Shown here in pieces: positions 4,725-58,874 of a stretch of DNA of 64,000 nucleotides. Under the pieces are notes generated by a model that did not search any database, was not told the origin of the DNA, and worked only from the letters and a program-made list of their open reading frames with translations. Position 1 is the first letter of the stretch. Each line of letters opens with the position of its first letter. The position numbers and the translations under genes are program-made. The stretch lies in the IMG/VR virus record IMGVR_UViG_3300012346_000137, positions 48,731-112,730 of that record; one strand, given 5' to 3'. Source of the DNA: a virus. Taxonomy: Duplodnaviria > Heunggongvirae > Uroviricota > Caudoviricetes.

Positions 4725-7700
4725 TTAAAAAGATACACCTCCTTGACAAGGTAATTTTTCGTTTATATTTTCTGGTTCTGATTCTATTTTAGTTTGCATA
4801 GACACAGCCTCATCTCCCATCACATCTTCAATCACACTGTCTTCTACCTCATCCACTTTAATATATCCATTATCGAATATACCCTTTTGAGCTAATGTAG
4901 AATCTGCATCTCCAGGAACCAACTTACCATAGAACTCGTTAGCTCTAAAGCTATCTCCCCAAGTGTTGATTGCTTTGTATACAAATGATTCATACACTCT
5001 ACCATCTTTTGCTGTAGATAGATAAACAATTGGATTGCCAGCACTGTTGTACACCTTCTTGAATAATCCTTTATTGATGTAAGAGTAATCACCCTTCTTT
5101 CTCATTTCAGCCTTTTGAGCCTTAGTGTATTTCATGTCTTCCCAAACATAAGTGATTATATCAGAAGCTCCTTCTCTAGACAATGTAGAAATGTTAACCA
5201 TCTGAGGTATTTTCTTATTACCCATTGCTTTTGACAATCTCTTGCTTAAGAATTTCATTTCTAAGTTATACATCCAGTTACCTGCTTTAGTCTTTATCCA
5301 TCTAGCTTTCTTAGAAGGAACAACTTCAGAATTAGTGTAAAGTGTTCTTTCCATTACATTCAAATCGATAAAGTCTGCTAAGTTAGGCATTTCTTCTAAC
5401 TTTGCCAAAGTATCGTTATATATTTCTTTGAAATCTGTATATGGCAATAACGAACTAAATGATATTTTAGAGTTGGTCAAACCAGATTGTAACACAGCAA
5501 CTCTTACCAACTTACCATATAATTCCTTAGGAACTCTATCTTTAAGTTCTCTGAATCCAAATATGATTTGGTTCTGGTTATAAATCTTGCTATCCTTAGC
5601 TGTCAAGTATAAGTTATCAGGTTGACCATCTTTACCACCCTTGTTCATTTGAAGAGCATTGATAATGATGTTGTCTTTTAATGGATGATTAGGATCATTC
5701 ATTACAGCAGACTTAAAGTTCATTATCTCTTGAGCAGCACTTACAGCTGTATCACTTCCTAACAATGTGGCAGCCAATCTGTTAGTTAATTTTCTATCAA
5801 TTTGTGTAGCCCAGTCAAACAAGTTGTTGATTGTGTTTCTAGCAAACTTCACAAACTCTCTATCGTTAAGCTGAATATGTTTAGACAATACAGCTTCTAC
5901 AGTAGCTCTAACACGTGGTTTCTCAGAAACTAATATGTCAGAATAAGCTTCTCTTACATCATTTAACACCTCACGTAAATGACCTACAAATGAGTTTTCT
6001 AATATATCGTTTACAGAAGAAATGATTGTTTTCTCAGCAGCTTTGATTTGTTCGTTCTTCTTGAACAATAACATTGGGTCATTGAAAGATGCTGTGTCAA
6101 AACTTGTAGCTTGTTGCACCTTAAATAAGTGCTCAGCCATCTTAGCGTATTTCACAAACTCCTTCAATATCAATTGCTGTTGAGCCTTCTGAAGTGGGGA
6201 CATATCTTCTGACTTCATACCAACCATCTCACCTAACTTTTTTTCATTAGGCATTTCACTAGTAGTTACATCAGCACTATCAAATGATTCAATTGCATCT
6301 TGTGCAAATTGATCAATAAATAACCAGCTATATCCTTGATTCTCAATTGTTTGTAAGTATTGCTTAACAATTGGTTGGTTCATGAAGTAAGCTGTAGTCT
6401 TAATAGGCACACCAATCTTAGTTAAGAATAACCAAGTAGATGCTGTATTAGGTCTAGCACCAAGATCCATGATCCAAGCACCCTTAGAGATATCCACATA
6501 TCCATCGATAAACATACCAATAACATCAGAGATAGCTCTTCCAGCAGTGTCTGTAATCTTTGATAACGTAGCTCTCTTCTGTCCATTAACAGTGATTTGG
6601 TTATGAGGAAGTGCAATACTTCCATCTCCAATATAATGTCTATCCTCAGCACTAATGTTTCTAGTTGGATCTAAGTAAATTAAAGAACGTTGGTTCTGAG
6701 CGTTGTTTGTTTGAGCTACAGCAGCAATACCAATTGCATACTTACCAGTTACAAAGTCTTGTCTCAAACCAGTCATCTTTTCTCTACTTAACATATTTGC
6801 TGTAGAAGAGTAATCTGGTTGCTCGATGCCTAACTTTTCATTAATCTCGTAAGCTAAGTCTTTTAATAACTGAGCATCATTAGGTTGAGTTAACTGATCA
6901 AAGTTTGCAGGATTAGTAATAAGTCCTTCTAAAGAAGTTATATAAGCATTCTCTAAAGACTTACCATAATACTTCTCAACAAACTCTGCTCTTGCTGCTG
7001 CTAATAAGTCAGCATTAGTTAACTTGTCAATATCCTTACCAGCTTTCTCAAGCTTTCTTTGTAATGCCTGTGCTATCTCAATACCTGTTAACTCCTCACC
7101 ATACATGCTTTTGAAAATAGGAATCCACTTATCTACTTGTTTATCTGAAGCATTTCCTGATAAGATGTTACTCCATAATTCTTGCATTCCACTAAGCTTT
7201 GTAATCTTAGCTTCTGTAAGGTCTGTTTTATCCTTAGTGATGCTATCAAACAACTCACCAAACTTAGCTTTAGCTTCTTCACCAAATCCATGGAAAGGAA
7301 CTAATCTAATTTTACCAGCTGCATCCTTATAGATGTTCTTCAAGTAGATTGATAACTTATCTATATCAAAGTCAGATCCCACCTTCTTAACCAATGCTGA
7401 AGGTATGATTACTGAGTCACCATATCCTTTAGGTAAGAACTTAGCAATCTTGAATACATCAATTGAATTCTGGCTTTGTGTAGGAATACGATATGCAACA
7501 CCTCTTAACACCTCTTGTCCTTCAGGGCTTTTGAAGAATTCCATTGCTTCTTCCTCTGTCATCATGCTATCATCAAACCATTTAGCTACCATGATTTCAC
7601 ATACACGCTCACCATCCTTCTCATAGAACTTCAATTCATTTGATACATAAGCACCAGTCTCAGGATCTACTTCAGCACGTACAGACTCTAATAATGTAAC

Positions 7701-10700
7701 AGGAACCTGTACCTTCAATCCACCATTAATCTTCTGAGAAGAAATATTTCTGTCAGCAATTGAATATAAAATATTTCTAATTTGTTGGTAAGCTGGAGTA
7801 GCTTCTAATATAACTTCATCATTTTCAAAACTGTCAAAAGCTTCAATGATATTATCATTTACTTCTCTCTTGTACATTTCATCTTTCAAGGTGTCAATTA
7901 ACTTTTTCTTGTTATTTAACTTAATACCCTTGTCTGTTCTAACAATACCCAACTGATCAATCAATGTATCAAAACCATAGTTGATTTTTTCCTCTAATAT
8001 ACGTTGGTTAGTTAATATTTCATTATATAAATTCTTACCATCGTTGTAAGAAAACTTATCTTCTAATGCTGTCCAAGCAGCAAATCTCTCATCAATGTCA
8101 GTAATCTCTGGAGCAAAGTCAACAGGGACACCTGCTTGCATTAAATCCATAGTTACCAACTTAGTAATCTGGCTACCTTGAGTGGTATCGTTTGTATCTT
8201 TAGAAGGCACCTCAGCTTGAATACCAATGATGTCAAATGGTATATTGCTTACATTCTCATCTTCGTTAACTTCAGCATTATTAAACTTACCATTCTCATT
8301 GTACAATTTCACAGGAGTTTTAGCACCAACCTTTCTACCTGTACCATATACAGCATAGTCAATGTCATTCTTTTGCATCTTGTTGTATAACTTGATAGCA
8401 TTTGAATCAGGGTTTAACTCATGTAATAATCTGAATGATAATGGGAATAAGGCAAACTTATCTAATACAACATCGTTCCAGTTGTTACCATCTAACTTAT
8501 TACCAGCAACAATAGGTTTAATTGGAGTGTATGCACTCTTGATGTTTGGATTATCCTTCATCAATTCATTAAGTTCCAACTTAGTAGCACCACCTTTTAC
8601 TGCTTTCTCATAAGCAATGTCAAATCTATATTGTCTTTCCTCAAGGCTGTTCCATTGTCCAGCTCTGATTCTAAGGTTACGATTAGCTCTCATGCTGATA
8701 TATCCACCACCATCAGTCTCTTCAAATACACCATAGTCTTTAAGATCACTCTTAGAAATAACATCAGCTAATGTGATAGACTTAAAGTAGTCTCTAATGA
8801 AGTCAGTGTATCCAATGTCAGTTGGTTCAAAGCCTTTGTTGTAAGCTTTGTCTAACATAGTATTGATTCCTTGACTGTTTGCTAATAGGGGCTGACGAGG
8901 AGAATTGAAGTTTTTGATACGCTTTAATTCGTCCTTGTATTGATAAGGATCTGAGTATACCAACTTATGAAGTTCAATATTAGCAATCATATAGTTAGCT
9001 GCTAATAATGATAGTTGACTCATTAAATCTGCTTCAGTCATACCATCATAGTTCTCAAGTGCTACACCTTCTGTAACAATCTCACCTGCTTCATTAAGAC
9101 TTGCAATACCATACTTACCAAATGTCATTCTACTAACCATTGCCTCTTCTCTAATCTTATCTTCAACAGCAGCTTCAATCTTAGCCTTAAAGTCATTGTA
9201 GATCTTTTCAGCAGAGTCTTTAGAAGACAACCTTTTAACTATATCTTTATGATCTTCCTTACTTAAGATTGCCTTGAAGAAACGCAAGTCTGTAGATTCT
9301 CTTTGTTCCTTACCAGCTTTAATCTCTTTAGGTGTAAGTTTAAGTTTAACAATAGGTCTATCTTCTCTAGCTACATTCACCTCAGAGATAAAGTATTCTC
9401 TAAAGATTTTATGAATAGCATCGTATCCAGTGTTATCAAATTGGTTCTTAGTTACAAACTGACCCATGTTAACCATCCACTCAATAGACGCATCTCCAGG
9501 AACTAAGTTCATGTAGAAGCCATTTAAGTTCAAGTTAATCTCTTGGATAAGTCTTTCTTTGAAGTTTAACTTAGAAGATTCTTTCTTCTTGTTAGTTTGC
9601 TCGTTAACATAACCATCAACGTATGCTGGTTTCAATAAATCAGTTGTATTAGAAATACGTCTACCATCAGCAGCATCTCCAGTGATGTTAAACATTTTGT
9701 TTAATGTTGCACTTCCTTTAGAGAAAGCATCATTAACCAAACGTGCATATTTAGTGCTACCTAACTCATTGTAATTTTTAACATTAGAGATAACGTCATG
9801 CATGTCACTAACTAAGTTAGTACCAAGGTATGTTTGTACACGATCACCATTCAAGTTGAAATATGTACTTTCAAACTCTGGATTCTTTAAGATTGCACTA
9901 ATTGTACCTAACTGTAATAAACGACCATCTATTCCTAATGTCTTGGTATTCAATGTTTTAACACCAGACAATTTACTTAAACTATTCTGTAATCCTTCAA
10001 CAGCATCTTTGAATGCAGTTAATTGGTTACCCTTAATCTTAGCTCTAATTTGTTTAGGGTCAAGCTTGATACCAAACTTACTTAAGAATTCTGTATATGT
10101 ATCAATATCATCTGATACTAATTTATAATTACTTACTGGTGCTTGAGAGGTATACTCTTTCTTAGCTGCATCATATTTAACATATGGGTTAGTTGATCTA
10201 ATAGAAGCAATCAATGCAGATGCCATGTTAGATCTTTCTTGTGTAGCAGCTGTAGATAAAGCTGAGTTAGAAACAATCACCTCACCAGAAGGTAATGTAA
10301 ATACTACCTGTACGTCAGCGTTCAACTTCTTAAATGCTCTCCAGAATCCAGCAATCAATTGAACATGATGTTCATCTGTTAACTTAGAATAGTCAATAGG
10401 TCCTTCAGTAACCTTACTTCTTGTTAAACGAAAATACAAAGAAGCATATGTAGGATTCTCGTTACCCAATGCTCTTAACTTAGACATCATATCGTCAAAG
10501 TTAGTAGCTGAGTGTAACTTGTTCATTAATGTAATGTAAGACTTATCAAGAGGAGTTAGCTTCATACCATATATAGAAGAACGCACTGGCTTCATTGAAC
10601 CATCTGCTTTCATTTCCATAGTAGGCAACGTACCAATTAACAATCTAATTGTAGCATTGATCTTCTTGAAATTATCCATCTTTCTAGCATCTTGCCAGTC

Positions 10701-13700
10701 AGACTTACCACTAGCATCCTCGTCTCTAACAATAGCCTCATCATTCTCATCAAACTCTACGTTGTAGGTTTTAAGATATTCAATGTGCTTCTTTTTAAGA
10801 CTATCCCACTCTAACATTACATTGTAGTGTAACATCTCATAGTTAGCCTTAGCTACTGGATCTGTAATAATTTGTTTCTTATGACGAATTAAATTTGAAA
10901 TCTCATCCTTTAATTCATTGTATTTATCAGTCTTATTTAATACAACACTTGCAGTGAATAAACTTTCATTATTTTTAGCTAATTCAGAAAGTACACTATA
11001 CGTCATGTGTTCCATGATCTCATGTACTTGAGTCTGAGGAACTCTAGCAATACTAAACATACTATCTTTAGTAGCTCTAGCATCCTCTATATCAATTACA
11101 TTGTTCTCTGCAAGACTTAAGTTGTACTCATAAGGAATAGCTGTCTTATAGTAACCTTCACCAATGTTCTTAAATAATGTCTCTGTATTAGAAGCAGCGT
11201 TAGAACCTACAAAGAACTCTTTAATTGTATTAAACAATTCAGTGAAGAATCTAACAATAGCATTCTTACTTGGTTCTGCTTTGTAAATCTTACGTGAAAG
11301 AGTGTAATCTTTAAACTCTTCTGCTAATTGTTCTTCTATTTGTTTATCTGATGCTTCAGAGTAGCTGATAGTTATATCCTCTAGGTTATCATTTAGAGCA
11401 GTAAATGTACCTTTTCTGTTTCTGAATTCATCAAATATAACCTTACGCTCTGTAGCATCAGTGAACATATTGAATATAGCATGGAACACTTCGTGGTAAG
11501 CTGTACCTACTTGTGCATTCTCATACACATAGATAGCACCTTTTCTAAACATACCCCAAGCTTGTCTACCATTGGTAGCCTTAATAATATTCTTAACTCT
11601 GTACACAGGAACACCTGGTACATTTTCTTTTAACCATTTTTCTACAGCTGTCCAATCTTCATTCTCAAAGCTACCCACTTCATTCTCTTCTTGTAAGCTA
11701 TACACTTCATCACTAGGAACAATAATAGGCTCTTCATCAAATGCCACCTGATCTTGTTCAGGCACATCTGTCGTTGGAACCTCTACAGGAACCAACGCTT
11801 CGTCTAAGATTGGCTTTAACTTTGTATATACAGATTGTATAATTAACTCATTAGCAGAACGCTCATCAATATTTCTAGCAGCCATCAATGTAGATGTTGT
11901 CTCAGGCATTGCCTTTACACTAAATCCTGCTGCTAAAAGATCTCCTTTTGAGCTAATGAACTTTTGTAAATCTAATACAAATGTAACAAGTCCACTATTC
12001 AACTGCATGTTGTTTACAGTTTGTCCATCTAACTTAAATCCTTGAACAGGTGCAGGTTGTTGTGCTTGTTGAGGAGTAGTTGCTTTAGGAGCTGGTTGTG
12101 TTACAGGAACTTGTTTTACAACTGCTGCTGGTTGAGGGAATGTATATACATCTCTTGTATCAGTTAATGTGAAATAGATACCTGTTCTATTAGAATCATT
12201 CTCGCCTACAAGAGGTTTAAATGCAGTGGTAAATGGAACCTCACCTTTATTTCTACCTTTAGAAGATAATAAGAACGTTTGGTAGTTTTTCCATTCTTTA
12301 ACAATAGGAGTGCCATCAGCATTTAATCCTACAATCTCAGAATAAGGATCGTTAAATGCCTTCTGCCTAAGCATGGTAGCATTAGCGTTATTATACATTG
12401 CTGTAAATGCTGTAACTAACATGTCTCTATTTGTCTCTATAGATGTTTCAGTGAAAGGAATACTTGCTCCTTTACCAGAAATAAACAATTGAGTAGATGG
12501 CTCACCAGCAGCATCCACTACATCTTCAAACCAGATGTTATTATATCCAGCTTGTTTTCTTTCTTTTGTTTGTGTGTTCTTAGCAATACCCCAATATGCA
12601 ACTGACTTTAACCAGTTGATTAACACTTGGTTTCTCTTGCTCTTAACTGTACGATCATCAAATGTATTCTTAGCAATTTGCTTTAATACATCAACCATTA
12701 AGGTAGCTTCGTTAACATTGAACTTTCTGTTTAATAATTTAACTAAACCACCTTTAGCCTTTAAGAACACTCTACCTAATGGAGTGTTAAATGTAACACT
12801 ACCTTCAGTGACACTATCATTATTTGTAGCAACACTCACTAATGGATCTACAGCCAAATCAGCATCTGTTACCAATCCAGCTTCTGTAACACCAGTTTGA
12901 GCATCGTAGTCTATAACTTCTACACCTTTATCATTCTTTGTCTTTACATATTCACCAATACCAAAAGATGCTGAGATCTCTCTAGGAGCACTTATTGTTT
13001 CTTTAGATAATTGTTCGTTTCTCCAAGTGTCATATTGTTTCTCTAACTCTTGTCTTAATGTTTTGTTGTTAGCAACATCATCTCTGAACATGCTTTGTCT
13101 CACCCAATTACCACTAGCATCTTTGTAAGATTGCATTAATTCCTTTGCAGGAAACACTTGGTAAATAGCAGTGTCAATTAAGTTAGCTCCTTGAGGAATA
13201 GGATTACCAAACTCATCCACTGGAGTGAATGTACCATCATCATTAGACTGAACCATTACCATAGCAATAGTCTGATTAGGATCTATTTCCTTCTTTTCTC
13301 CAGCCAAATGTTGCATCAATCCTACCTTTTTAGTTTCAGGATTGTTTTCAAAACCAGCAATCAAATGTTGGTTCTTAGCTGTAACAATAATACCCTTAAT
13401 AGACTTATCCTTAGTAATCTCAGAGAATCTATTACCAAATCTATCAGCTCTTAACTGATGTTCTCTACCTTCAAATAATGTAGCAATTGTACTACCCAAC
13501 ACTTCCCACCAATCTTTTTTAGCTTCTGGTTGGTAAGTCTTAGCGTTACTTGGTTCGTTTTGTGTATCTGTGCTGTTGATGCCTATTAACTCTTGTCTTA
13601 GTTTGGCATCTTTTGCAAGTTTCTTTTCTTGTTCTTTTTGTAACTTGTACGCAGTAGCAATTGCCTGGAACTTATTGACAATCAATTCTTTAGCTCCTAA

Positions 13701-16700
13701 CTCTTGCTCAAGCTGTCTAAGCTGAGATTGTAATCCAGTTAATTCTTCTCTTAACTCACCTAAGCTACGTTCATTAGGAATTACATCCACCTCATCAATG
13801 TTTGCAAGGTCTCTCTCAAATTCAAGGAAGTCACTCATTAAATTTGGATTAGCCATTCTAACCTCAGGATTAGCAAGTAAGTATTCTTGTAATGCTAATG
13901 GAGTGTATGGTAAGTTTGGATATTTAGTATCAAACTTTTTTATTAAATCTAAAGCTAAATCAACAGCTTGATCTAATGCACCTTGTACACCATCTATAAG
14001 TTTAGCAATTGTATTGATGTTATTACCTGTCTCAATAATTAAATCTTCTATGTTAGTCTTTTGTTCCTTCAAATCTTCAAGGAACTCTGAACCAGACACA
14101 TTCATCAAATCAATACTATCAAACACATCATTAAGATATGCTTGGTTAAACTCTAGATTTTCTTTCTCAGCTTCTAGTTCTTGAATCTCATTAACTAACT
14201 GATCTTTTAATTTAGATAATTTAGATGCAGTTTTAATAGCATTTGCAGTAGTTCTTTTAAATGCATTTGTTTTGGTCATCTCACCACCTTTGAGTTTATT
14301 CTCAATTGTAGTAATGTCCTTAACTATAGTTTCAAGTTCTGAGTACTTTCTATCAAGTAGTTGTTTTGTTTTAGATAACTTCTCACTCACCTCATCGTGT
14401 AACTCTGCAATTACCTTTAATCTAGCTTCTTGCTTAGCTTCAAACTTAGCATCCTTCTCTTCAGAGAATTCTTGTTCTGCTTGCTTTTGAGCAGCAGTTA
14501 ATTCTCCAACTGCAGTGATGATAGCTTTATTATATCCTTTTTGAGGAACAAATTGTTTACCTGATACCTCAATAGATTTAATCTTCCCTTTCTTATCTCT
14601 ATACACAAATTCCAACACTCCATCTTTTGAAGAGTATTGTAATCTACCTTTAACCTTGTTACCTTTACCAAAGTTGAATTCAAATGCAGTGTTAGCATGC
14701 TCTAAGAAATACTTAGCCTTCTTGTTATTTAAAGTGTCAGACACCTTACCTAACTTATAGTCAGCTAAAACTTCTTTAGATACATCTCTTATTGTACCAT
14801 TAGCTTCTTTAATCTTAATTGTACCATCTCCATTATCACCTAATATAGTAAGTCTAGGGAAACGATATACTTCCTTACCATCTTTACTATATTCAACCAC
14901 CTTACCTAAGAAGTATTCTTCTCCAACTTCTACATTCTCCTCACCATCTTTAGTTTTAATACTAACAGTTTCTTTAATAGCACCAGGTTCTTTAACAGCA
15001 CCAGGTTCAGTTGTTGTTTCTTTATCCTCCTCCTTAGTTTCTACAGCTGTATACTTAGCTGGGTTCTTTTTAATATCATCATATTCTTTAATGAAACTAT
15101 TTCTACGAAGAGCTATTTCAGAAAGGTCTACTAAGTTTTGAGCAATGTCAGCCTTTTGGTCATCATTGATATCTTTTCTGTTCTCAATACCTTCAAGTGC
15201 TTTGTTGTATGCTTCTGAGTCACCTGCAATGATAGAGCTAGTAATCTCACTTGTATTAGTAATACCTTGAGATATTAAATCAGATACAAGACTTATAGAT
15301 CTATTATCATAATCAGAGATCTTAGTGGCAGCATATACCATCTTGTCCATAACTTCATCGTTATAAACTTTCTTCTTATCAGCATCAATTAATCCACCAT
15401 AACGTAAGTTTAAAGACTGATATAAAGAATGGATGTTTTCTGCTGTGTTCTCTAAGTTAGAAAGTCTCTGTAAGTATTGTGGTCTAGTATCCCCAGACAA
15501 TGCCTTACCCTCAGCCTGCAATTGAGCAAATCCTTCTTCTGTAGAAGCTAATTGTCTATAAGTATTAATGTCATCTTTAACTAAATCAAATCTACCATAC
15601 TTAATACGTGGAGTTAAGTAGTTGATAACATAGTCTGCTTCTTTATCTTTACTCTCAAGAATATCTCCTTGTCTAAGAAGTTTTTCTCTTTCTTCTTGTA
15701 ATACAGTACCTCTGTTAACAGAATCAATTGTATCTTTAGTAAAACTAGATAATTGATAGTTTGAGAACTGCTGAATAGCCTTTGCAGTGTTGTCAGCTAT
15801 TTCTTTATTCTCTGAGTATCTAGATCTTGCAGTCATCAATGCACCTGATAAACCTCCAATAAGAACGTTCTCCATACCCTCATTTGTTGTAAGAGTTTGG
15901 GTGATACCTTCTGATAAAGAGCTTAACCAGCTTGTTGCTTGATTATTATATTTCTTATTGTAGTAGTCTTGTGTACTAGCTTGAACAGCATATTGTGCAC
16001 CTTCTTCAAATCCTTCTGCTATAGAGAAAGTGTAAGGTCTAATTTTATCTACAGTATTAATAAGTTTACCAAATCTTGGAGCCTTTGCTATATACTTGCC
16101 TGCAGCACTATCAAATACCACATCGTCAATCTCTTTTGCTAAACTATTAACAATGCCCTTCTCAGCCTTATATGAAGATCCTAATATCTTAGGGAATTGA
16201 ATATAGTTAGTTGCTGATAACAATCCTATGTTAGCCCAAAGACTTGAGTTACCTACACCTTCTGCTTCTTTATTAATTCTTTCTAAAGCTGCACCTGTAG
16301 GCTCAACACCATTTATACTTTTATATTCTTCTATTCTTTTATTTCTGAACTCGTTCATATTATTATATGCTTCGAATCCAGCTTCACCTGTAGTAGCTAA
16401 TCCTGCTACAATAGCACGTTGACCTTTGCTTAATACATTGTATTGTCCTAAAAATCTATTAGATAAAGAAGATAATTTACCATATGCTTCTGCACCTTTA
16501 TTTGCTGCTAGTAACCCTTCTTCAGTTGCAGCTAATGCTTCTGCAGCTCTACCAACAGATATAAGTCTAGCAGCACCAGGTATAACCTTTAATGCATTTG
16601 CCACCCCAGATATAGCACCTGCGTACACGTTACCTGCTAATGCAGCACCTGCAGCAAATCCCATATTCTTAATAATACCATCCCAGAAGAAGTTAGCACT

Positions 16701-17255
16701 AAACAACTTACTTGGAGAATACCAGTTAGCAGCTTTCTCTGCATCTGTATAATAGTTAGGAAGAGCATCTTCCAATTTTTTATTTAATTCATCTAATTGT
16801 CTGTTGAACTCATTGTCATAAAATGACGCAAGTCTACCATCCATCTTTGCTCTAGCCAAACCATTAACTAAACCTACAGTAGATTGTAAGAATGTTGTTC
16901 CTGTAATAGCCAATCCTTTACCAACAGCGTTAGCCATTTTATCTGTCCAACCTTGCCCAAGAGCATATGCATCTTCATTATTATAATCTCCAGGAACAAA
17001 ATTATCGTATCTATTAGACATAGATTCGCCTAAGCTTCTTAGTTTAGAACCTCCTGTCATAAGATCACTTGGACCCTTAATAGAATTTTGTAATGCTGTA
17101 AGAGCAGATGGAGCTGGTCCATCACCTGGAAGACTTAGACCACTAGTATCAAGTCCTGTGTATGCTATATTAGGACTAGCTGATCTTTCTTCAAAATTCC
17201 TTGGTTGGTTAGACTCTCTTAAAAGGGATAAATCTGTTAATGGAGTATCTGGCAT
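4725..17255 (-). CDS. giant virion protein (4176 aa); candidate virion-packaged RNA polymerase / multi-domain cargo protein
   Basis: Single uninterrupted 12.5-kb ORF. It contains GSDFDIDK (aa 3295-3299, nt 7359-7373), which resembles the DxDGD/NADFDGD metal-binding loop of double-psi beta-barrel (DPBB) RNA polymerases. It also contains AYHEVFHAIF (aa 1921-1925, nt 11481-11495), a zincin HExxH motif. The N-terminus has Gly/Ala-rich hydrophobic stretches. Crassvirales phages are known to package giant RNAP-containing proteins encoded downstream of the tail module. Confidence 0.5.
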   Translation of the reverse strand: MPDTPLTDLSLLRESNQPRNFEERSASPNIAYTGLDTSGLSLPGDGPAPSALTALQNSIKGPSDLMTGGSKLRSLGESMSNRYDNFVPGDYNNEDAYALGQGWTDKMANAVGKGLAITGTTFLQSTVGLVNGLARAKMDGRLASFYDNEFNRQLDELNKKLEDALPNYYTDAEKAANWYSPSKLFSANFFWDGIIKNMGFAAGAALAGNVYAGAISGVANALKVIPGAARLISVGRAAEALAATEEGLLAANKGAEAYGKLSSLSNRFLGQYNVLSKGQRAIVAGLATTGEAGFEAYNNMNEFRNKRIEEYKSINGVEPTGAALERINKEAEGVGNSSLWANIGLLSATNYIQFPKILGSSYKAEKGIVNSLAKEIDDVVFDSAAGKYIAKAPRFGKLINTVDKIRPYTFSIAEGFEEGAQYAVQASTQDYYNKKYNNQATSWLSSLSEGITQTLTTNEGMENVLIGGLSGALMTARSRYSENKEIADNTAKAIQQFSNYQLSSFTKDTIDSVNRGTVLQEEREKLLRQGDILESKDKEADYVINYLTPRIKYGRFDLVKDDINTYRQLASTEEGFAQLQAEGKALSGDTRPQYLQRLSNLENTAENIHSLYQSLNLRYGGLIDADKKKVYNDEVMDKMVYAATKISDYDNRSISLVSDLISQGITNTSEITSSIIAGDSEAYNKALEGIENRKDINDDQKADIAQNLVDLSEIALRRNSFIKEYDDIKKNPAKYTAVETKEEDKETTTEPGAVKEPGAIKETVSIKTKDGEENVEVGEEYFLGKVVEYSKDGKEVYRFPRLTILGDNGDGTIKIKEANGTIRDVSKEVLADYKLGKVSDTLNNKKAKYFLEHANTAFEFNFGKGNKVKGRLQYSSKDGVLEFVYRDKKGKIKSIEVSGKQFVPQKGYNKAIITAVGELTAAQKQAEQEFSEEKDAKFEAKQEARLKVIAELHDEVSEKLSKTKQLLDRKYSELETIVKDITTIENKLKGGEMTKTNAFKRTTANAIKTASKLSKLKDQLVNEIQELEAEKENLEFNQAYLNDVFDSIDLMNVSGSEFLEDLKEQKTNIEDLIIETGNNINTIAKLIDGVQGALDQAVDLALDLIKKFDTKYPNLPYTPLALQEYLLANPEVRMANPNLMSDFLEFERDLANIDEVDVIPNERSLGELREELTGLQSQLRQLEQELGAKELIVNKFQAIATAYKLQKEQEKKLAKDAKLRQELIGINSTDTQNEPSNAKTYQPEAKKDWWEVLGSTIATLFEGREHQLRADRFGNRFSEITKDKSIKGIIVTAKNQHLIAGFENNPETKKVGLMQHLAGEKKEIDPNQTIAMVMVQSNDDGTFTPVDEFGNPIPQGANLIDTAIYQVFPAKELMQSYKDASGNWVRQSMFRDDVANNKTLRQELEKQYDTWRNEQLSKETISAPREISASFGIGEYVKTKNDKGVEVIDYDAQTGVTEAGLVTDADLAVDPLVSVATNNDSVTEGSVTFNTPLGRVFLKAKGGLVKLLNRKFNVNEATLMVDVLKQIAKNTFDDRTVKSKRNQVLINWLKSVAYWGIAKNTQTKERKQAGYNNIWFEDVVDAAGEPSTQLFISGKGASIPFTETSIETNRDMLVTAFTAMYNNANATMLRQKAFNDPYSEIVGLNADGTPIVKEWKNYQTFLLSSKGRNKGEVPFTTAFKPLVGENDSNRTGIYFTLTDTRDVYTFPQPAAVVKQVPVTQPAPKATTPQQAQQPAPVQGFKLDGQTVNNMQLNSGLVTFVLDLQKFISSKGDLLAAGFSVKAMPETTSTLMAARNIDERSANELIIQSVYTKLKPILDEALVPVEVPTTDVPEQDQVAFDEEPIIVPSDEVYSLQEENEVGSFENEDWTAVEKWLKENVPGVPVYRVKNIIKATNGRQAWGMFRKGAIYVYENAQVGTAYHEVFHAIFNMFTDATERKVIFDEFRNRKGTFTALNDNLEDITISYSEASDKQIEEQLAEEFKDYTLSRKIYKAEPSKNAIVRFFTELFNTIKEFFVGSNAASNTETLFKNIGEGYYKTAIPYEYNLSLAENNVIDIEDARATKDSMFSIARVPQTQVHEIMEHMTYSVLSELAKNNESLFTASVVLNKTDKYNELKDEISNLIRHKKQIITDPVAKANYEMLHYNVMLEWDSLKKKHIEYLKTYNVEFDENDEAIVRDEDASGKSDWQDARKMDNFKKINATIRLLIGTLPTMEMKADGSMKPVRSSIYGMKLTPLDKSYITLMNKLHSATNFDDMMSKLRALGNENPTYASLYFRLTRSKVTEGPIDYSKLTDEHHVQLIAGFWRAFKKLNADVQVVFTLPSGEVIVSNSALSTAATQERSNMASALIASIRSTNPYVKYDAAKKEYTSQAPVSNYKLVSDDIDTYTEFLSKFGIKLDPKQIRAKIKGNQLTAFKDAVEGLQNSLSKLSGVKTLNTKTLGIDGRLLQLGTISAILKNPEFESTYFNLNGDRVQTYLGTNLVSDMHDVISNVKNYNELGSTKYARLVNDAFSKGSATLNKMFNITGDAADGRRISNTTDLLKPAYVDGYVNEQTNKKKESSKLNFKERLIQEINLNLNGFYMNLVPGDASIEWMVNMGQFVTKNQFDNTGYDAIHKIFREYFISEVNVAREDRPIVKLKLTPKEIKAGKEQRESTDLRFFKAILSKEDHKDIVKRLSSKDSAEKIYNDFKAKIEAAVEDKIREEAMVSRMTFGKYGIASLNEAGEIVTEGVALENYDGMTEADLMSQLSLLAANYMIANIELHKLVYSDPYQYKDELKRIKNFNSPRQPLLANSQGINTMLDKAYNKGFEPTDIGYTDFIRDYFKSITLADVISKSDLKDYGVFEETDGGGYISMRANRNLRIRAGQWNSLEERQYRFDIAYEKAVKGGATKLELNELMKDNPNIKSAYTPIKPIVAGNKLDGNNWNDVVLDKFALFPLSFRLLHELNPDSNAIKLYNKMQKNDIDYAVYGTGRKVGAKTPVKLYNENGKFNNAEVNEDENVSNIPFDIIGIQAEVPSKDTNDTTQGSQITKLVTMDLMQAGVPVDFAPEITDIDERFAAWTALEDKFSYNDGKNLYNEILTNQRILEEKINYGFDTLIDQLGIVRTDKGIKLNNKKKLIDTLKDEMYKREVNDNIIEAFDSFENDEVILEATPAYQQIRNILYSIADRNISSQKINGGLKVQVPVTLLESVRAEVDPETGAYVSNELKFYEKDGERVCEIMVAKWFDDSMMTEEEAMEFFKSPEGQEVLRGVAYRIPTQSQNSIDVFKIAKFLPKGYGDSVIIPSALVKKVGSDFDIDKLSIYLKNIYKDAAGKIRLVPFHGFGEEAKAKFGELFDSITKDKTDLTEAKITKLSGMQELWSNILSGNASDKQVDKWIPIFKSMYGEELTGIEIAQALQRKLEKAGKDIDKLTNADLLAAARAEFVEKYYGKSLENAYITSLEGLITNPANFDQLTQPNDAQLLKDLAYEINEKLGIEQPDYSSTANMLSREKMTGLRQDFVTGKYAIGIAAVAQTNNAQNQRSLIYLDPTRNISAEDRHYIGDGSIALPHNQITVNGQKRATLSKITDTAGRAISDVIGMFIDGYVDISKGAWIMDLGARPNTASTWLFLTKIGVPIKTTAYFMNQPIVKQYLQTIENQGYSWLFIDQFAQDAIESFDSADVTTSEMPNEKKLGEMVGMKSEDMSPLQKAQQQLILKEFVKYAKMAEHLFKVQQATSFDTASFNDPMLLFKKNEQIKAAEKTIISSVNDILENSFVGHLREVLNDVREAYSDILVSEKPRVRATVEAVLSKHIQLNDREFVKFARNTINNLFDWATQIDRKLTNRLAATLLGSDTAVSAAQEIMNFKSAVMNDPNHPLKDNIIINALQMNKGGKDGQPDNLYLTAKDSKIYNQNQIIFGFRELKDRVPKELYGKLVRVAVLQSGLTNSKISFSSLLPYTDFKEIYNDTLAKLEEMPNLADFIDLNVMERTLYTNSEVVPSKKARWIKTKAGNWMYNLEMKFLSKRLSKAMGNKKIPQMVNISTLSREGASDIITYVWEDMKYTKAQKAEMRKKGDYSYINKGLFKKVYNSAGNPIVYLSTAKDGRVYESFVYKAINTWGDSFRANEFYGKLVPGDADSTLAQKGIFDNGYIKVDEVEDSVIEDVMGDEAVSMQTKIESEPENINEKLPCQGGVSF

Positions 17256-52753: not shown

Positions 52754-52957
52754 ATGACAATATACATCAGAACACAACTAGAAGATGAATATGTAGTATC
52801 TATTACATCAGATATTGTTCCTAGAGTAGGAGAAAGAGTAACTGTTATAGATGAACATACTAATGATGTTAAAGATTATATAGTTAAGTCTGTTGATTAC
52901 ACTTATAACATTAGTAGGTTTAGTGAGTATCTACAGAGAATAACAATTTATGTATAA
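52754..52957 (+). CDS. early hypothetical protein (67 aa)
   Basis: ORF with an AACAATTATATG start context. Confidence 0.4.
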   Translation: MTIYIRTQLEDEYVVSITSDIVPRVGERVTVIDEHTNDVKDYIVKSVDYTYNISRFSEYLQRITIYV

Positions 52958-52981
52958 TGTACCATTTCTATTTCCCAATAT

Positions 52982-53097
52982 AGTGAGGTGGTGGAATTGG
53001 GAGACACTGTGGTAAACCTTTCGAGTATGTGTACAATACGACTTAAAAGAGAGAAAGTTAGACCACATTACTACAGGTTCGAATCCTGTCCTCACTA
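52982..53097 (+). tRNA. tRNA-like element, non-canonical length (116 nt) with ~50-nt insertion in anticodon region
   Basis: Perfect 7-bp acceptor stem (AGTGAGG 52982-52988 with CCTCACT 53090-53096) and discriminator A. T-arm ACAGG-TTCGAAT-CCTGT (53073-53089). U8; D-loop with A14, A15, G18, G19. 5-bp anticodon-stem-like helix (53008-53012 with 53063-53067). The helix is separated by ~50 nt that fold into a further helix and a distal 7-nt loop, GUGUACA. CCA is not encoded. Confidence 0.45.
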
Positions 53098-53263
53098 CAT
53101 GTCTTATTATATACAATATTACACCTTATATTCTTAGGAATATAGAAACGAGCTCCAATATGATGGAGTGTGTATAATACACACATTATATAATAAGACT
53201 TTTTAAATTTATTGTTTTTCCTCGTTTAGATAAACAAAGACAGGAAGAGTGCCCTCAATCCTG

Positions 53264-53292
53264 GGAGAGAGCCACGTATAAGAGCTCTCTCC
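53264..53292 (+). other. stable 9-bp hairpin (GGAGAGAGC...GCTCTCTCC)
   Basis: Perfect 9-bp inverted repeat with an 11-nt loop. No U-tract follows, so it may be a processing or stability element downstream of the tRNA-like RNA. Confidence 0.35.
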
Positions 53293-53388
53293 AAACAAAA
53301 GGGGATTTAACATGTTGCATTATGAGACACAACAGAATATACCAGCCTAGGCAACATATGGCTGTATATTCGCTTTTAAACACACATT

Positions 53389-53607
53389 ATGAAACCAATT
53401 AAACACCTTATCAACATTATGTTCCTATGGAGCATACCATTCATTCTATTAGGATTCTTCCTATTAGTTACAGGATTCTCTTTCAGCTATAGAGCAGCAG
53501 TATGTTCTGATCTATGGATTAGCGTTAATTTCTTCTATTGTCTGGGTTCAGTTATACTTTACACGTTCAGTGTAGGAGAAACTGATGAGATGTCAATATT
53601 AAAATAA
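53389..53607 (+). CDS. small membrane protein (72 aa, two TM helices)
   Basis: Hydrophobic profile. Confidence 0.4.
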   Translation: MKPIKHLINIMFLWSIPFILLGFFLLVTGFSFSYRAAVCSDLWISVNFFYCLGSVILYTFSVGETDEMSILK

Positions 53608-58429: not shown

Positions 58430-58812
58430 GGGGGTGCTTTGGATTTGATCCATATGAGATGGATAGTATCACATGCAGGGCTGGTAGAGCCTAAACATTC
58501 TATCGAACAATAACTGTAGAATTATCTACAATGGACTTCGAAGGTCTTATGGCTTTCGTTGGTGGTGAGTTAGAGATAGCTGCATAATCTGTGGGTGGCA
58601 ACAACCCACATCCTTTAAAGAAAGTTGCACGAGTTTTCTCTGTTATGTCAAAACAGAGTGGTGGTAGATAGTAGAGACCCTACGATCCCAATCTACTGAT
58701 CAGATTTTAGATGAGCTTTGTAACTGGCTTATCATCTAAAGACAGATCTAAGCATGTAAGAATGGTATTATTTATACTTATGGAGACGAGGGTTCGACTC
58801 CCTCCACCTCCA
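58430..58812 (+). ncRNA. ssrA: transfer-messenger RNA (tmRNA, ssrA), phage-encoded
   Basis: The 5' end (GGGGGUGCUUUGGAUUUGAUCC) parallels E. coli GGGGCUGAUUCUGGAUUCGAC. The 3' end (GGAGACGAGGGUUCGACUCCCUCCACCUCCA) parallels GGACGCGGGUUCAACUCCCGCCAGCUCCA. The 7-bp acceptor stem has G32:U at position 3:70, the AlaRS identity element. T-arm GAGGG-TTCGACT-CCCTC. Helix 2a pairs TCCATA (58447-58452) with TATGGA (58779-58784). An internal tag ORF reads ...GLMAFVGGELEIAA-TAA (stop at 58585-58587), followed by a GTGGGT...ACCCAC helix. CCA is not encoded. Confidence 0.8.
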
Positions 58813-58874
58813 CGTCCACAAATAAATTTGGTCATCTCCACAAAATACCATATATTTGTATAAAATATAAACAT

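What the first reader, a model, noticed from the sequence alone, without database searches (positions are those of the whole stretch)
52982..53097. tRNA-like RNA with canonical acceptor/T/D arms but a ~50-nt insertion replacing the anticodon loop
A perfect 7-bp acceptor stem, a GGTTCGAATCC T-loop and D-loop G18/G19 at the right spacing argue strongly for tRNA ancestry. At 116 nt it is far too long even for a class II tRNA. The extra sequence sits between a well-formed 5-bp anticodon-type stem and folds into additional helices. This could be an intron-containing tRNA, which would be unusual in a phage of bacteria and too small for a group I intron. It could also be a tRNA-derived regulatory or structural RNA, or a decoy for tRNA-targeting defences such as PrrC or VapC-like anticodon nucleases.
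Basis: seen in the sequence. Interest (0 to 1): 0.6.

Follow-up and report, generated by a model that had tools for sequence, protein, structure and literature searches.

The report
Phage tRNA-like RNA without an anticodon
This is a real 116-nt tRNA-shaped RNA gene that cannot decode, and it belongs to a large, apparently undescribed family found almost only in phages, in which a constant tRNA-Leu-type body carries hundreds of different conserved inserts where the anticodon arm should be.

Summary
Window 52982-53097 (+) scores 37.7 bits on the Rfam tRNA model (threshold 29), with perfect acceptor, D and T arms and 48 nt in place of the 7-nt anticodon loop.

It is not an intron-containing tRNA. 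Only 18 hits occur in 185,579 species genomes, all on MAG contigs. The shared chassis (consensus AGUCAGG-UG-GCGGAAU(U)GGUAGACGC ... U-ACAGGUUCGAAUCCUGU-CCUGACU-A) keeps every known bacterial leucine identity element. The centre ranges from about 20 to about 140 nt and falls into at least 184 unrelated types.

None of the 184 types has a canonical anticodon stem-loop, against 81% of genuine tRNAs in the same loci. Each centre type is nonetheless conserved (π 0.10, flanks about 0.65) and shows compensatory changes. Copies sit in phage tRNA arrays, up to 13 in 5 kb. Orthologous loci can carry unrelated centres.

Best reading: a tRNA-processed, possibly leucylated chassis that displays exchangeable RNA modules. 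The modules' targets are unknown. No Rfam family or paper describing the family was found.

The parts
52930..52958 (+). Sigma-70-like promoter candidate, TCTACA-17 nt-TATAAT. It would give a leader of roughly 15-17 nt ahead of the RNA.
   Evidence: 10 of 12 consensus positions. The number of promoter-like sites in the region is no higher than in shuffles, so only its position supports it. The TATAATGTACCATTTCTATTTCCCAA leader is 98.7% identical in relative L272 up to 4 nt before the element.
52979..52981 (+). Leader 'TAT', ending in U at position -1.
   Evidence: T at -1 is the best-conserved flank base upstream of family members (1.12 bits). A preference of RNase P for U(-1) is from my own knowledge, so RNase P cleavage here is inferred.
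52982..52988 (+). Acceptor stem, 5' strand (AGUGAGG).
   Evidence: It pairs perfectly with 53090-53096. Across the family, acceptor pairs 1-4 covary, e.g. AGUCAGG/CCUGACU, GUCAAGG/CCUUGAC, GGACAGG/CCUGUCC.
52989..53007 (+). U8, G9 and the class II (tRNA-Leu-type) D arm: GUG-GAAUUGGGAGA-CAC. It has a 3-bp stem and carries A14, A15, G18, G19 and A20a.
   Evidence: The family consensus D arm, GCGGAAUUGGUAGACGC, is the tRNA-Leu type; its exact identity to the E. coli tRNA-Leu D arm is from my own knowledge. The window's U11-A24 pair is a compensated variant of C11-G24, seen as UA in 4 of 44 sequences.
53008..53013 (+). 5' strand of the 6-bp stem (UGUGGU) that occupies the anticodon-stem position and closes the insert.
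   Evidence: It pairs with 53062-53067 (ACCACA).
53014..53061 (+). The 48-nt module that replaces the 7-nt anticodon loop. With the closing stem it forms one long irregular hairpin (helices AAC/GUU, CUUUC/GAGAG, GAGU/ACUU, UGUGU/ACAAU... with an ACA tip).
   Evidence: cloverleaf-constrained fold; z = -2.67 for module plus stem. No Rfam family matches it. No relative with this centre type was found, so there is no covariation test for this particular module.
53062..53072 (+). 3' strand of the closing stem (ACCACA) followed by the 5-nt variable loop (UUACU). The U just before the T stem is at the position of U48.
   Evidence: T at this position occurs in 93% of family members, and A15 is part of the search pattern, so the A15-U48 Levitt pair is available.
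53073..53089 (+). T arm: ACAGG-UUCGAAU-CCUGU.
   Evidence: T-stem pairs covary in the family, e.g. GCAGG/CCUGC, GUAGG/CCUAC, GAUGG/CCAUC.
53090..53098 (+). Acceptor stem 3' strand (CCUCACU), discriminator A73 (53097), then C at +1 (53098). CCA is not encoded.
   Evidence: In the family, A73 occurs in 84% of members and C at +1 carries 1.58 bits. The next bases are mostly AA or TA rather than CA.

Best explanation
The element is a gene for a non-decoding tRNA-like small RNA. It is one member of a large family found almost only in phages.

The family has two parts. The first is a nearly constant chassis: acceptor stem, class II tRNA-Leu-type D arm, T arm, A73, U8:A14, A15-U48 and G18G19. The second is an exchangeable centre that replaces the anticodon arm. 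Centres fall into many unrelated types, and each type is conserved.

Proposed mechanism (inferred):
1. The RNA is transcribed from its own promoter in this phage, and inside tRNA arrays in others.
2. It is cut out like a tRNA, by RNase P at the 5' end after U(-1) and by 3' trimming, and receives CCA.
3. It folds into an L-shape, which makes it stable.
4. It carries the full bacterial leucine identity set, and LeuRS needs neither the anticodon arm nor the variable arm, so it is probably leucylated and may bind EF-Tu.
5. The centre is the specificity or effector part. In the window it is a long hairpin of about 60 nt sitting where the anticodon arm would be. It is proposed to bind a host or phage RNA or protein.

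In effect the chassis would be a natural counterpart of the laboratory 'tRNA scaffold'.

Shown: membership of the family, the lack of any anticodon stem-loop, conservation and covariation of both chassis and centres, restriction to viral sequence, array organisation, and swapping of modules between orthologous loci.

Inferred: processing, charging, and above all what the modules bind.
For: - Identity. Rfam tRNA scores 37.7 bits with a 48-nt loop insert.
- Family. The covariance model finds members up to 191 nt.
- Chassis structure. The chassis helices are 99.2% paired, and 8 pairs show changes on both sides. 0 of 500 shuffles reach this, and slid controls pair at 29-39%.
- Non-decoding. 0 of 184 centre types has a canonical anticodon stem-loop, against 387 of 480 genuine tRNAs from the same loci. 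Some centres are a 5-bp stem capped by a GNRA tetraloop, and one type is an H-type pseudoknot with covariation.
- Centres are selected. Within centre types π is 0.10, compared with 0.05-0.07 for the chassis and 0.64-0.68 for the 60-nt flanks. In some types the centre is invariant while the D loop and T stem vary. There are compensatory changes in a closing stem and an invariant single-stranded GUGGUAUAAAU. Centres are more stable than shuffles, mean z = -0.89.
- tRNA-like biogenesis. Copies lie on the same strand inside phage tRNA arrays. T at -1 and C at +1 are conserved, and CCA is not encoded.
- Leucine identity. A73, A15-U48, G18G19, A20a and U8:A14 are present. E. coli tRNA-Leu variants lacking the anticodon arm and the variable arm are still charged (PMC9976931). 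In 56 of 150 types the last helix ends exactly 2 nt before the T stem, as a class II variable arm does.
- Modularity. L054 and L121 share both flanks at 92% identity or more but carry unrelated centres. The same centre type occurs on chassis with different acceptor and T stems, L063 versus L442.
- Not a host gene. Only 18 hits in 185,579 species genomes, all on MAG contigs. Genuine tRNA-Leu genes in the same phages have other acceptor stems.
Against: - There is no expression, processing or charging data. Every step after 'it is a conserved structured RNA gene' is inference.
- No target was found. Complementarity of centres to their own window or locus is no better than chance.
- No neighbouring protein gene is conserved.
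- Centres share no common motif and match no known aptamer or ribozyme family.
- The window's own centre type is a singleton. Its structure rests on energy alone (z = -2.67).
- The near-invariance of the acceptor sequence itself (AGUCAGG in about 75% of hits where it was not imposed) is not explained by a pure 'stability scaffold'. It hints at a sequence-specific partner for the chassis.
- The element is sporadic among close relatives of this phage, 4 of 80 loci, so it is dispensable.
- Leucine identity rules come from E. coli and Aquifex. The hosts here, possibly Bacteroidota, are untested.
Confidence: 0.55

Rival explanations
1. Chassis-as-effector, that is a decoy or sponge. In this model the active part is the tRNA body. 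The RNA titrates or misleads a factor that reads the acceptor/T/D body, such as LeuRS, EF-Tu, RNase P, the CCA-adding enzyme, or defence toxins that modify or cut tRNA 3' ends or bodies. The centre serves only to prevent decoding, or to escape recognition, and diversifies in an arms race.
For: The acceptor and T minihelix is the most invariant part, even in copies that have lost the D arm (L091 10140). AGUCAGG dominates where it was not imposed by the search. The elements sit with tRNA arrays, which phages are thought to carry against tRNA depletion (my own knowledge). Variation is concentrated exactly where tRNA-targeting nucleases act.
Against: A mere spacer should be short and free to drift. 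Instead the centres are long (up to about 140 nt), fall into discrete types, and within a type are as conserved as the chassis, including single-stranded stretches. One genome keeps up to 13 different centres on the same chassis, which is redundant for a sponge. Decoys for anticodon nucleases would need an anticodon loop, and none has one. Stoichiometric titration of abundant factors by one gene, as in this window, is implausible.
Confidence: 0.2
2. A processing and recombination element. The tRNA-like fold serves as an RNase P / RNase Z 'punctuation' site that cuts polycistronic transcripts between small accessory genes or protects mRNA ends. At the DNA level the conserved halves act as homology arms that shuffle neighbouring gene cassettes between phages.
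For: Elements alternate with small same-strand ORFs in arrays. Pairs of loci share only one flank, with the junction at the element. Conserved -1 and +1 bases fit processing. The conserved part ends sharply at the tRNA ends.
Against: Punctuation needs only a generic tRNA shape. It explains neither the invariant acceptor sequence nor the conservation of the centres. In the window the element stands alone behind its own promoter-like site, about 290 nt from the next ORF. Flanking direct repeats are not a general feature.
Confidence: 0.12
3. A Leu-charged ribosome-directed RNA, tmRNA-like. In this model the charged chassis enters ribosomes with EF-Tu, and the centre plays a role analogous to the body of tmRNA.
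For: The leucine identity set is intact. Class II geometry, with a helix in the variable-arm position, is common, and tmRNA helix 2 mimics a long variable arm (my own knowledge). The window also encodes a tmRNA.
Against: There is no G3:U70. Centres share no ORF or resume codon and no conserved pseudoknot set. No Rfam tmRNA hit falls here. A full D arm is present, unlike the tRNA-like domain of tmRNA. No SmpB-like partner was seen.
Confidence: 0.05
4. An intron-containing tRNA. For example an ochre-suppressor tRNA(UUA) after removal of 43 nt, as ARAGORN -i draws it.
For: ARAGORN -i returns tRNA-Stop(tta) i(34,43). The motif GACUUAAAA, which resembles a tRNA-Leu(UAA) loop, occurs inside the insert.
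Against: The resulting loop, UAUUAGA, has A33. No known bacterial machinery splices a 43-nt intron at position 33/34. No group I core is present. The in-silico introns of family members vary in site (31-41) and in anticodon. 0 of 184 types has an anticodon stem-loop. Some members leave no room for one. There is no stop-codon recoding in the window's ORFs.
Confidence: 0.04
5. A decaying tRNA-Leu pseudogene with no function.
For: Default ARAGORN rejects it. It is sporadic among relatives.
Against: A decaying gene should lose the chassis too. Here the chassis is nearly invariant with compensatory changes across hundreds of unrelated contigs, and centres are conserved within types.
Confidence: 0.02

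Closest known systems
Bacterial class II tRNA-Leu
   Same: 7-bp acceptor stem, U8, and a 3-bp D stem. The family consensus D arm, GCGGAAUUGGUAGACGC, is the tRNA-Leu type. A14, the A15-U48 Levitt pair, G18G19, A20a, the GGUUCGAAUCC T loop and A73 are all present. Often a helix ends 2 nt before the T stem, as a long variable arm does.
   Different: There is no anticodon stem-loop in any of the 184 centre types. Length runs from 70 to 191 nt. The acceptor sequence differs from the genuine tRNA-Leu genes of the same phages. The family is absent from cellular genomes apart from MAG contigs.
Phage T4 species 1 and species 2 RNAs (rnaC, rnaD)
   Same: Small stable RNAs of unknown function encoded at the end of a phage tRNA cluster. 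rnaC ends in a T arm (CCGGGUUCGAAUCCCGG) plus an acceptor-like stem.
   Different: There is no sequence relationship. rnaC scores only 17.5 bits on a tRNA-clan model, and its tRNA-like part is internal to the RNA. T4 has single copies, not a multi-type family on a constant chassis.
P1/P7 C4 and P4 CI antisense immunity RNAs (from my own knowledge; no paper was read here)
   Same: Phage small RNAs with a tRNA-like acceptor structure that are matured by RNase P. Their variable loops set target specificity. This is the closest functional precedent for the 'tRNA-processed chassis plus specificity module' idea.
   Different: They are much smaller, lack a full D/T/acceptor cloverleaf and a leucine identity set, and have known cis-encoded targets. 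No such complementarity was found here.
Engineered tRNA scaffold for recombinant RNA (Ponchon and Dardel; PMC3753655 was listed, and the details are from my own knowledge)
   Same: The anticodon arm of a tRNA is replaced by an arbitrary structured RNA, so that the chimera is processed and stabilised like a tRNA. That is exactly the architecture seen here.
   Different: It is a laboratory construct built on tRNA-Lys or tRNA-Met. Here the architecture is natural, phage-encoded and built on a tRNA-Leu-type body.
tmRNA
   Same: A tRNA-like acceptor and T domain joined to a large non-tRNA body. It is processed by RNase P and is aminoacylated without an anticodon.
   Different: tmRNA has alanine identity (G3:U70), a degenerate D arm, an ORF and pseudoknots, and a partner protein, SmpB. 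None of these is seen here. The window's real tmRNA is elsewhere, at 58430-58815.
MHV68 TMER viral tRNA-like RNAs and bacterial YrlA (PMC4337559 and PMC4201824 were listed; the details are from my own knowledge)
   Same: Both are non-decoding tRNA mimics encoded by viruses or mobile elements, used to express or position other RNA modules.
   Different: In TMERs a tRNA-like unit is followed by pre-miRNA hairpins in a eukaryotic Pol III unit. YrlA is permuted, with its ends in the Ro-binding stem. The only YrlA signal in the sampled family loci was a sub-threshold 26.8 bits (gathering score 69), lying over genuine tRNAs in L155.

Membership tests
Canonical decoding tRNA (Rfam RF00005) | Acceptor stem, D arm and T arm with a GTΨC-type loop; covariance-model score above the gathering threshold. 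| tested here: met
   37.7 bits against a gathering score of 29, covering model positions 1-71. All three arms are visible in the sequence.
Canonical decoding tRNA (Rfam RF00005) | A 5-bp anticodon stem closing a 7-nt loop with U33 and a purine at position 37; total length about 73-93 nt. | tested here: not met
   The loop is 48 nt and the total length is 116 nt. 0 of 184 family centre types pass a strict anticodon stem-loop test, against 387 of 480 control tRNAs. Default ARAGORN makes no call.
Bacterial intron-containing tRNA (group I intron in the anticodon loop) | An intron of about 200 nt or more with a group I core (P1-P9); exons that re-form a canonical anticodon loop. | tested here: not met
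   The insert is 41-48 nt. There is no Intron_gpI hit at E <= 10. Every possible 7-nt loop on the closing stem has A33.
Archaeal/eukaryal tRNA with a protein-spliced intron | A bulge-helix-bulge motif at the exon-intron junctions, usually at position 37/38; a host with a splicing endonuclease. | tested here: not met
   The constrained fold shows no 3-nt/4-bp/3-nt bulge-helix-bulge at the base of the insert. The genome is a tailed-phage type with a bacterial tmRNA. ARAGORN -i places the 'intron' at 33/34.
Leucine-accepting tRNA body (bacterial LeuRS identity set) | A73, U8:A14, A15-U48, G18G19, A20a and an intact D-loop/T-loop interaction; the anticodon is not required. | tested here: met
   All of these positions are present in the window copy and in the family consensus. 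The rule set is taken from PMC9976931.
Leucine-accepting tRNA body (bacterial LeuRS identity set) | Actual aminoacylation with leucine by the host LeuRS. | not testable with these tools
   This needs acid-gel northern blots or in-vitro charging. The host is unknown.
tmRNA (RF00023) | G3:U70 alanine identity, a tag-peptide ORF, pseudoknots, and a covariance-model hit. | tested here: not met
   Pair 3-70 is U-A. No tmRNA hit falls on this region, while the true tmRNA at 58430-58815 scores 85.6 bits.
YrlA / Y RNA-like (RF02553) | A permuted tRNA-like domain with the RNA ends in a Ro-binding stem; a covariance-model hit. | tested here: not met
   There is no YrlA hit in the window region. Here the RNA ends form the acceptor stem.
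Proposed new family: phage tRNA-Leu-chassis RNAs with an exchangeable centre | The constant chassis (NGUNAGG-UG-GYGGAAU...GAC[GA]C ... U-NCAGG-UUCRAAU-CCUGN-CCUNACN-A, with C at +1), no anticodon stem-loop, and viral context. | tested here: met
   The window copy scores 73.7 bits on family model R1 (it was in the training set). It shares the AGUGAGG acceptor variant with L002-L004, L289, L442 and L449. The window is a crAss-like-type phage genome.

The most novel reading that the evidence does not exclude
Phages maintain a natural 'tRNA-scaffold display' system. It consists of an almost invariant chassis that is probably leucylatable and matured by RNase P and the CCA-adding enzyme, onto which a very large pool of distinct structured RNA modules is grafted. 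At least 184 module types appear in a capped sample. Modules are kept in arrays of up to a dozen or more per genome and are swapped between genomes by recombination within the chassis arms. The modules would act as a repertoire of aptamers, antisense RNAs or inhibitors for host takeover or counter-defence. That would make this a new class of modular phage effector RNAs.
Probability: 0.35. Interest if true: 0.9.

Novelty: new variant of a known kind. Interest (0 to 1): 0.78.

Why it matters
If this reading is right, several things follow.

- A whole layer of phage biology has been hidden. Gene finders either miss these RNAs or mislabel them: ARAGORN skips most of them or gives them spurious anticodons, and its intron mode invents suppressor tRNAs.
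- Phage tRNA counts, and claims about 'suppressor' or 'intron-containing' tRNAs in metagenomic viruses, would need re-examination.
- The family offers hundreds of small RNA folds selected by nature on a ready-made expression chassis. It is a natural precedent for the tRNA-scaffold trick used in RNA biotechnology.
- It is a tractable system for asking what a charged but anticodon-less tRNA does in an infected cell.
- The module-swap pattern between orthologous loci is an unusual mode of evolution for an RNA gene.

Tried and rejected
1. Close relatives in GenBank phages. There was no match to the region or to 19 kb around it. A family-member query found only tRNA-Leu 5' halves or unrelated T arms, and no record carried both halves.
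2. Known RNA families for the centre. Rfam E-value scans of the window region and of 20 family loci gave only RF00005. A resemblance between the L126/L188 pseudoknot and preQ1-I could not be confirmed.
3. A shared motif in the centres. K-mer enrichment found only weak signals (GTAAGT in 13 of 171 centres, 2.6 expected).
4. Antisense targets. Complementarity to the window (maximum 11 nt, within the shuffle range) and to members' own loci (mean 9.7 nt against 9.6 in controls) is at chance level.
5. A conserved partner gene nearby. The best protein cluster occurs in only 9 loci.
6. Target-site duplications, as a test for a transposon-like element. They are not general. The 15-nt repeat around the L289 copy is a one-off.
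7. Intron-aware tRNA search. ARAGORN -i is too permissive to be informative here.
8. Metagenome scan with the 16-mer AGTGAGGTGGYGGAAT. It was too unspecific: 118 of 120 hits were random, so no relative with the window's centre type was obtained.
9. Literature. Nine searches, including the chassis sequence itself, found no description of the family. The library lacks most subscription journals, so a prior description cannot be excluded.
10. T4 rnaC and rnaD as homologues. They are analogous at best.
Full report
**1. The observation**

Window 52982-53097 (+) reads:

AGUGAGG-UG-GUG-GAAUUGGGAGA-CAC-U-GUGGU-[48 nt]-ACCAC-AUUACU-ACAGG-UUCGAAU-CCUGU-CCUCACU-A.

- A local Rfam scan aligns RF00005 (tRNA) end to end on exactly these coordinates at 37.7 bits (gathering score 29, E = 1.2e-6), with 48 nt in place of the 7-nt anticodon loop.
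- The routine whole-window scan at gathering thresholds missed the element.
- ARAGORN in default mode reports only the tmRNA at 58430-58815.
- With the cloverleaf enforced the energy is -30.9 kcal/mol, essentially equal to the unconstrained MFE of -31.7.
- The insert plus its 6-bp closing stem forms one long irregular hairpin, z = -2.67 against dinucleotide shuffles.

**2. Genomic setting**

- The window has 34.8% G+C.
- One strand carries a long block of large ORFs, including one of 4176 aa.
- PHROG matches identify terminase, portal, major head protein and DNA polymerase. I read this as a tailed phage of crAss-like type. That classification rests on gene content and is my inference.
- The element lies in a 430-nt intergenic slot on the + strand. 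It is 24 nt downstream of a TCTACA-17-TATAAT site and about 290 nt upstream of the next ORF.
- It is the only tRNA-like gene in the 64 kb.
- There is no match to any GenBank phage.

**3. It is one member of a large family**

- An exact search for the T arm plus acceptor 3' strand found three viral contigs carrying the same chassis with different centres.
So did a second pattern for shorter spacings.
- Together the fetched loci hold 303 elements, 248 of them distinct. Lengths run continuously from 70 to 128 nt. The covariance model later found members up to 191 nt.
- Positions that the search patterns did not impose are nearly invariant: A1 93%, G2 97%, U3 94%, C4 91%, the T stem ACAGG/CCUGU, the acceptor 3' strand CCUGACU, A73 84%, and U at position 48 93%.
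- Conservation stops at the RNA ends. The only conserved flank bases are T at -1 (1.12 bits) and C at +1 (1.58 bits), and CCA is not encoded.
- On an alignment of 44 diverse members the three chassis helices are 99.2% paired. Eight pairs change on both sides. 0 of 500 shuffles reach this, and slid controls pair at 29-39%. One caveat: the 44 sequences were pre-selected for a perfectly paired acceptor stem, so helix 1 is biased. The D and T stems were not filtered.
- The window's AGUGAGG/CCUCACU acceptor and its U11-A24 D-stem pair are compensated variants of the consensus.

**4. The family is viral, not cellular, and is distinct from the phages' real tRNA-Leu**

- The exact 23-mer CAGGTTCGAATCCTGTCCTGACT occurs in only 18 contigs among one genome from each of 185,579 species. 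All 18 are MAG contigs. Many are short, and many come from freshwater Bacteroidota bins. No isolate genome has it.
- A BLAST search of 50,697 GenBank phage records with one 94-nt family member found no record matching both halves of the query.
- Genuine tRNA-Leu genes in the same loci have unrelated acceptor stems, such as GCCAGAG and GCCCUGG.

**5. The centre is not an anticodon arm and not an intron**

- A strict test asked for a 5-bp stem with at least 3 Watson-Crick pairs, a 7-nt loop, U33 and R37, at the expected place. 0 of 184 centre types pass. 387 of 480 genuine tRNAs called in the same loci pass.
- The shortest members have only about 20 nt between the D and T arms. Some carry a 5-bp stem capped by GUAA, GUGA or AUAA.
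- In the window copy every 7-nt loop that could be closed by the GUGGU/ACCAC stem has A at position 33.
- ARAGORN in intron mode draws 'tRNA-Stop(tta)' with a 43-nt intron at position 33/34, but the loop it draws is UAUUAGA.
- The same mode 'splices' 144 of 184 types, with anticodons spread over 20 amino acids and intron sites from 31 to 41. I treat that as an artefact of a permissive search on a good chassis.
- No group I intron or any other Rfam family matches the insert or the centres in 20 other loci.

**6. The centres are many, discrete and conserved**

- At 65% identity the 303 centres fall into 184 types.
- They share no motif. The best k-mer, GTAAGT, occurs in 13 of 171 centres (2.6 expected).
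- Within a type the centre is as conserved as the chassis while the flanks are unalignable. Mean pairwise difference is 0.102 for the centre, 0.074 and 0.051 for the two chassis halves, and 0.64 and 0.68 for the 60-nt flanks.
- In the L133 type the 35-nt centre has a single variable site, while the D loop and T stem vary with compensation. The L081 and L132 types behave alike.
- The L013 type has an 8-bp closing stem with compensatory CG-to-UA changes at two pairs, followed by an invariant single-stranded GUGGUAUAAAU.
- The L126/L188 type is an H-type pseudoknot in which both stems covary (read from the sequences).
- The same centre type occurs on chassis that differ in acceptor and T stem, L063 versus L442.
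- Centres fold better than mononucleotide shuffles: mean z = -0.89, 43% below -1, 12% below -2.
- In 56 of 150 types the last helix ends exactly 2 nt before the T stem, the geometry of a class II variable arm.

**7. Organisation and evolution**

- Members lie on the same strand as, and interleaved with, genuine tRNAs and small ORFs in phage tRNA arrays.
- Locus L091 has 13 members in 5 kb. They have essentially the same acceptor stem and 12 different centres.
- In a few copies the D arm is also replaced, or carries an insertion of its own. The acceptor and T minihelix is therefore the most constant part.
- L054 and L121 share both flanks at 92% identity or more, yet have unrelated centres of 42 and 48 nt on the same chassis. 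Other pairs share only one flank, with the junction at the element. Modules are evidently exchanged, and the chassis marks recombination junctions.
- Among 80 loci from phages whose DNA polymerase is 73-81% identical to the window's (1.05 Mb), only four have a member. These are L337 (91 nt), L289 (158 nt, the same AGUGAGG acceptor), L304 (73 nt) and L330 (141 nt).
- L289 and L304 carry the element in the same intergenic slot as the window, but with other centres.
- In most relatives the same promoter and leader drive a different structured RNA, called 'motif A' in the notes. L289 has both, with a 15-nt direct repeat around the tRNA-like element.
- Flanking repeats are not a general feature.

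**8. What the chassis implies**

- The consensus D arm, GCGGAAUUGGUAGACGC, is the tRNA-Leu type. Its exact identity to E. coli tRNA-Leu is from my own knowledge.
- According to the review PMC9976931, E. coli leucine identity rests on A73, the A15-U48 pair, G18G19, A20a, U8:A14 and the D-loop/T-loop contacts. It does not rest on the anticodon or the variable arm. Variants lacking both arms are still charged.
- All of these elements are present in the window copy and in the consensus.
- T at -1 fits RNase P (my own knowledge). The C at +1 without an encoded CCA is shared with the genuine tRNAs of these phages.
- I therefore infer tRNA-type maturation, CCA addition and probable leucylation. None of this is shown.

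**9. Best explanation and rivals**

- The data fit a constant, tRNA-processed and possibly charged chassis that carries an exchangeable, selected RNA module. This is a natural analogue of the engineered tRNA scaffold. Functionally it is closest to the RNase P-matured P1/P7 C4 and P4 CI antisense RNAs (my own knowledge).
- What the modules bind is unknown. I found no excess complementarity to the window or to members' own loci and no conserved neighbouring gene.
- The main rival is that the chassis itself is the effector, a decoy for a factor that reads the tRNA body. That would explain the striking invariance of the acceptor sequence. It would not explain long, discrete, conserved centres, nor a dozen different centres in one genome.
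- A role in processing punctuation and as a recombination linker probably exists as a side effect, but does not explain conservation of the centres.
- The intron, pseudogene and tmRNA-like readings are each contradicted by specific tests.

**10. Novelty**

- Rfam 15 has no family for these RNAs beyond the generic tRNA model.
- Nine full-text searches, including one for the chassis sequence, found no description.
- The nearest cultured-phage analogue, T4 rnaC/rnaD, is a pair of functionless-to-date RNAs in a tRNA cluster. It has only a weak tRNA-like 3' domain.
- tRNA mimicry as such is well known, so I file this as a new variant of a known kind. The scale and modularity could justify a new class if function is demonstrated.

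**11. Limits**

- All the collection scans were capped, so counts are lower bounds.
- The search patterns bias the sample towards the consensus chassis.
- The window's own centre type has no known relative, so its structure is supported by energy alone.
- Hosts are unknown.
- There are no expression data.

Noticed in passing
window 58430-58815 (+): The phage encodes a full-length tmRNA (Rfam 85.6 bits). ARAGORN predicts the tag peptide VELSTMDFEGLMAFVGGELEIAA. The centre of the alignment has low posterior probability, so the tag is uncertain. No canonical tRNA gene is present anywhere in the 64 kb.
   Followed up: no
L272 5190-5280; L268 4650-4760; L260 6215-6320; L289 1270-1445 (the slot equivalent to window 52979-53100): 'Motif A' is an unannotated structured RNA driven by the same TATAATGTACCATTTC leader. 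It has three parts: a hairpin with the conserved loop UUCCCAAGG, whose stem covaries (UCUAU/AUAGA versus CAGC/GCUG); a long hypervariable hairpin (CAGAUGUA...UACAUCUG); and a conserved tail AGUACAGAGGGAUUU, which may form a CCC/GGG pseudoknot with the loop. In the window the tRNA-like element occupies its place. L289 has both, with the 15-nt repeat ATTTCTATTTCCCAA on either side of the tRNA-like gene. There is no Rfam match.
   Followed up: partly
window ~53240-53310 (+); L304 5825-5895: 'Motif B' has conserved flanks, GAAGAGUGCCCUCAAUCCUGGG ... CCAAACAAAAGGGG, around a hairpin whose sequence differs but stays paired (AGAGAGC/GCUCUCU versus UCAGGC/GUCUGA). It is probably another small structured RNA. 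There is no Rfam match.
   Followed up: partly
window 53309-53387 (+): An 80-nt non-coding block, TGTTGCATTATGAGACACAACAGAATATACCAGCCTAGGCAACATATGGCTGTATATTCGCTTTT, lies just upstream of ORF 53389-53607. It is 75-92% identical in about 14 related phage contigs whose surrounding DNA is otherwise diverged. It is a candidate regulatory region or RNA.
   Followed up: no
L240 ~1455-1550 (Vibrio phage 1.012.O, MG592397.1 around 16771-16805): In a group of cultured Vibrio phages, an unannotated element has a perfect tRNA T arm (ACAGGTTCGAATCCTGT) embedded in a 14-bp stem (GTCAGTTAAGAGTA/TACTCTTAACTGAC), next to a tRNA-Tyr gene. This is a different kind of tRNA-like structure.
   Followed up: no
family loci, e.g. 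L084 4949-5050, L091 11140-11229, L077 917-1034: Some centres contain a second T-arm-like hairpin (GGGTTCAAGTCCC, GTTGGTTCGACTCCAAG), or even a nested acceptor-plus-T mini-tRNA. One copy, in L077, carries its insertion in the D loop instead of the anticodon arm. Motifs such as AGGTGGA are enriched in centres, which suggests nested or recombined chassis fragments.
   Followed up: partly
L185, L009 5430-5515, L179: Three members with different variable-arm hairpins share the segment UGUUUCUAGACGA. It could be read as a weak stem with a CUA-containing loop that resembles an amber-suppressor anticodon. The stem has three G-U pairs and position 33 is C, so I did not count it as an anticodon stem-loop.
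   Followed up: partly
window 4725-17255 (-): A single ORF of 4176 aa, followed by ORFs of 869, 1361 and 1649 aa on the same strand. This is typical of the giant virion proteins of crAss-like phages. They were not annotated further.
   Followed up: no
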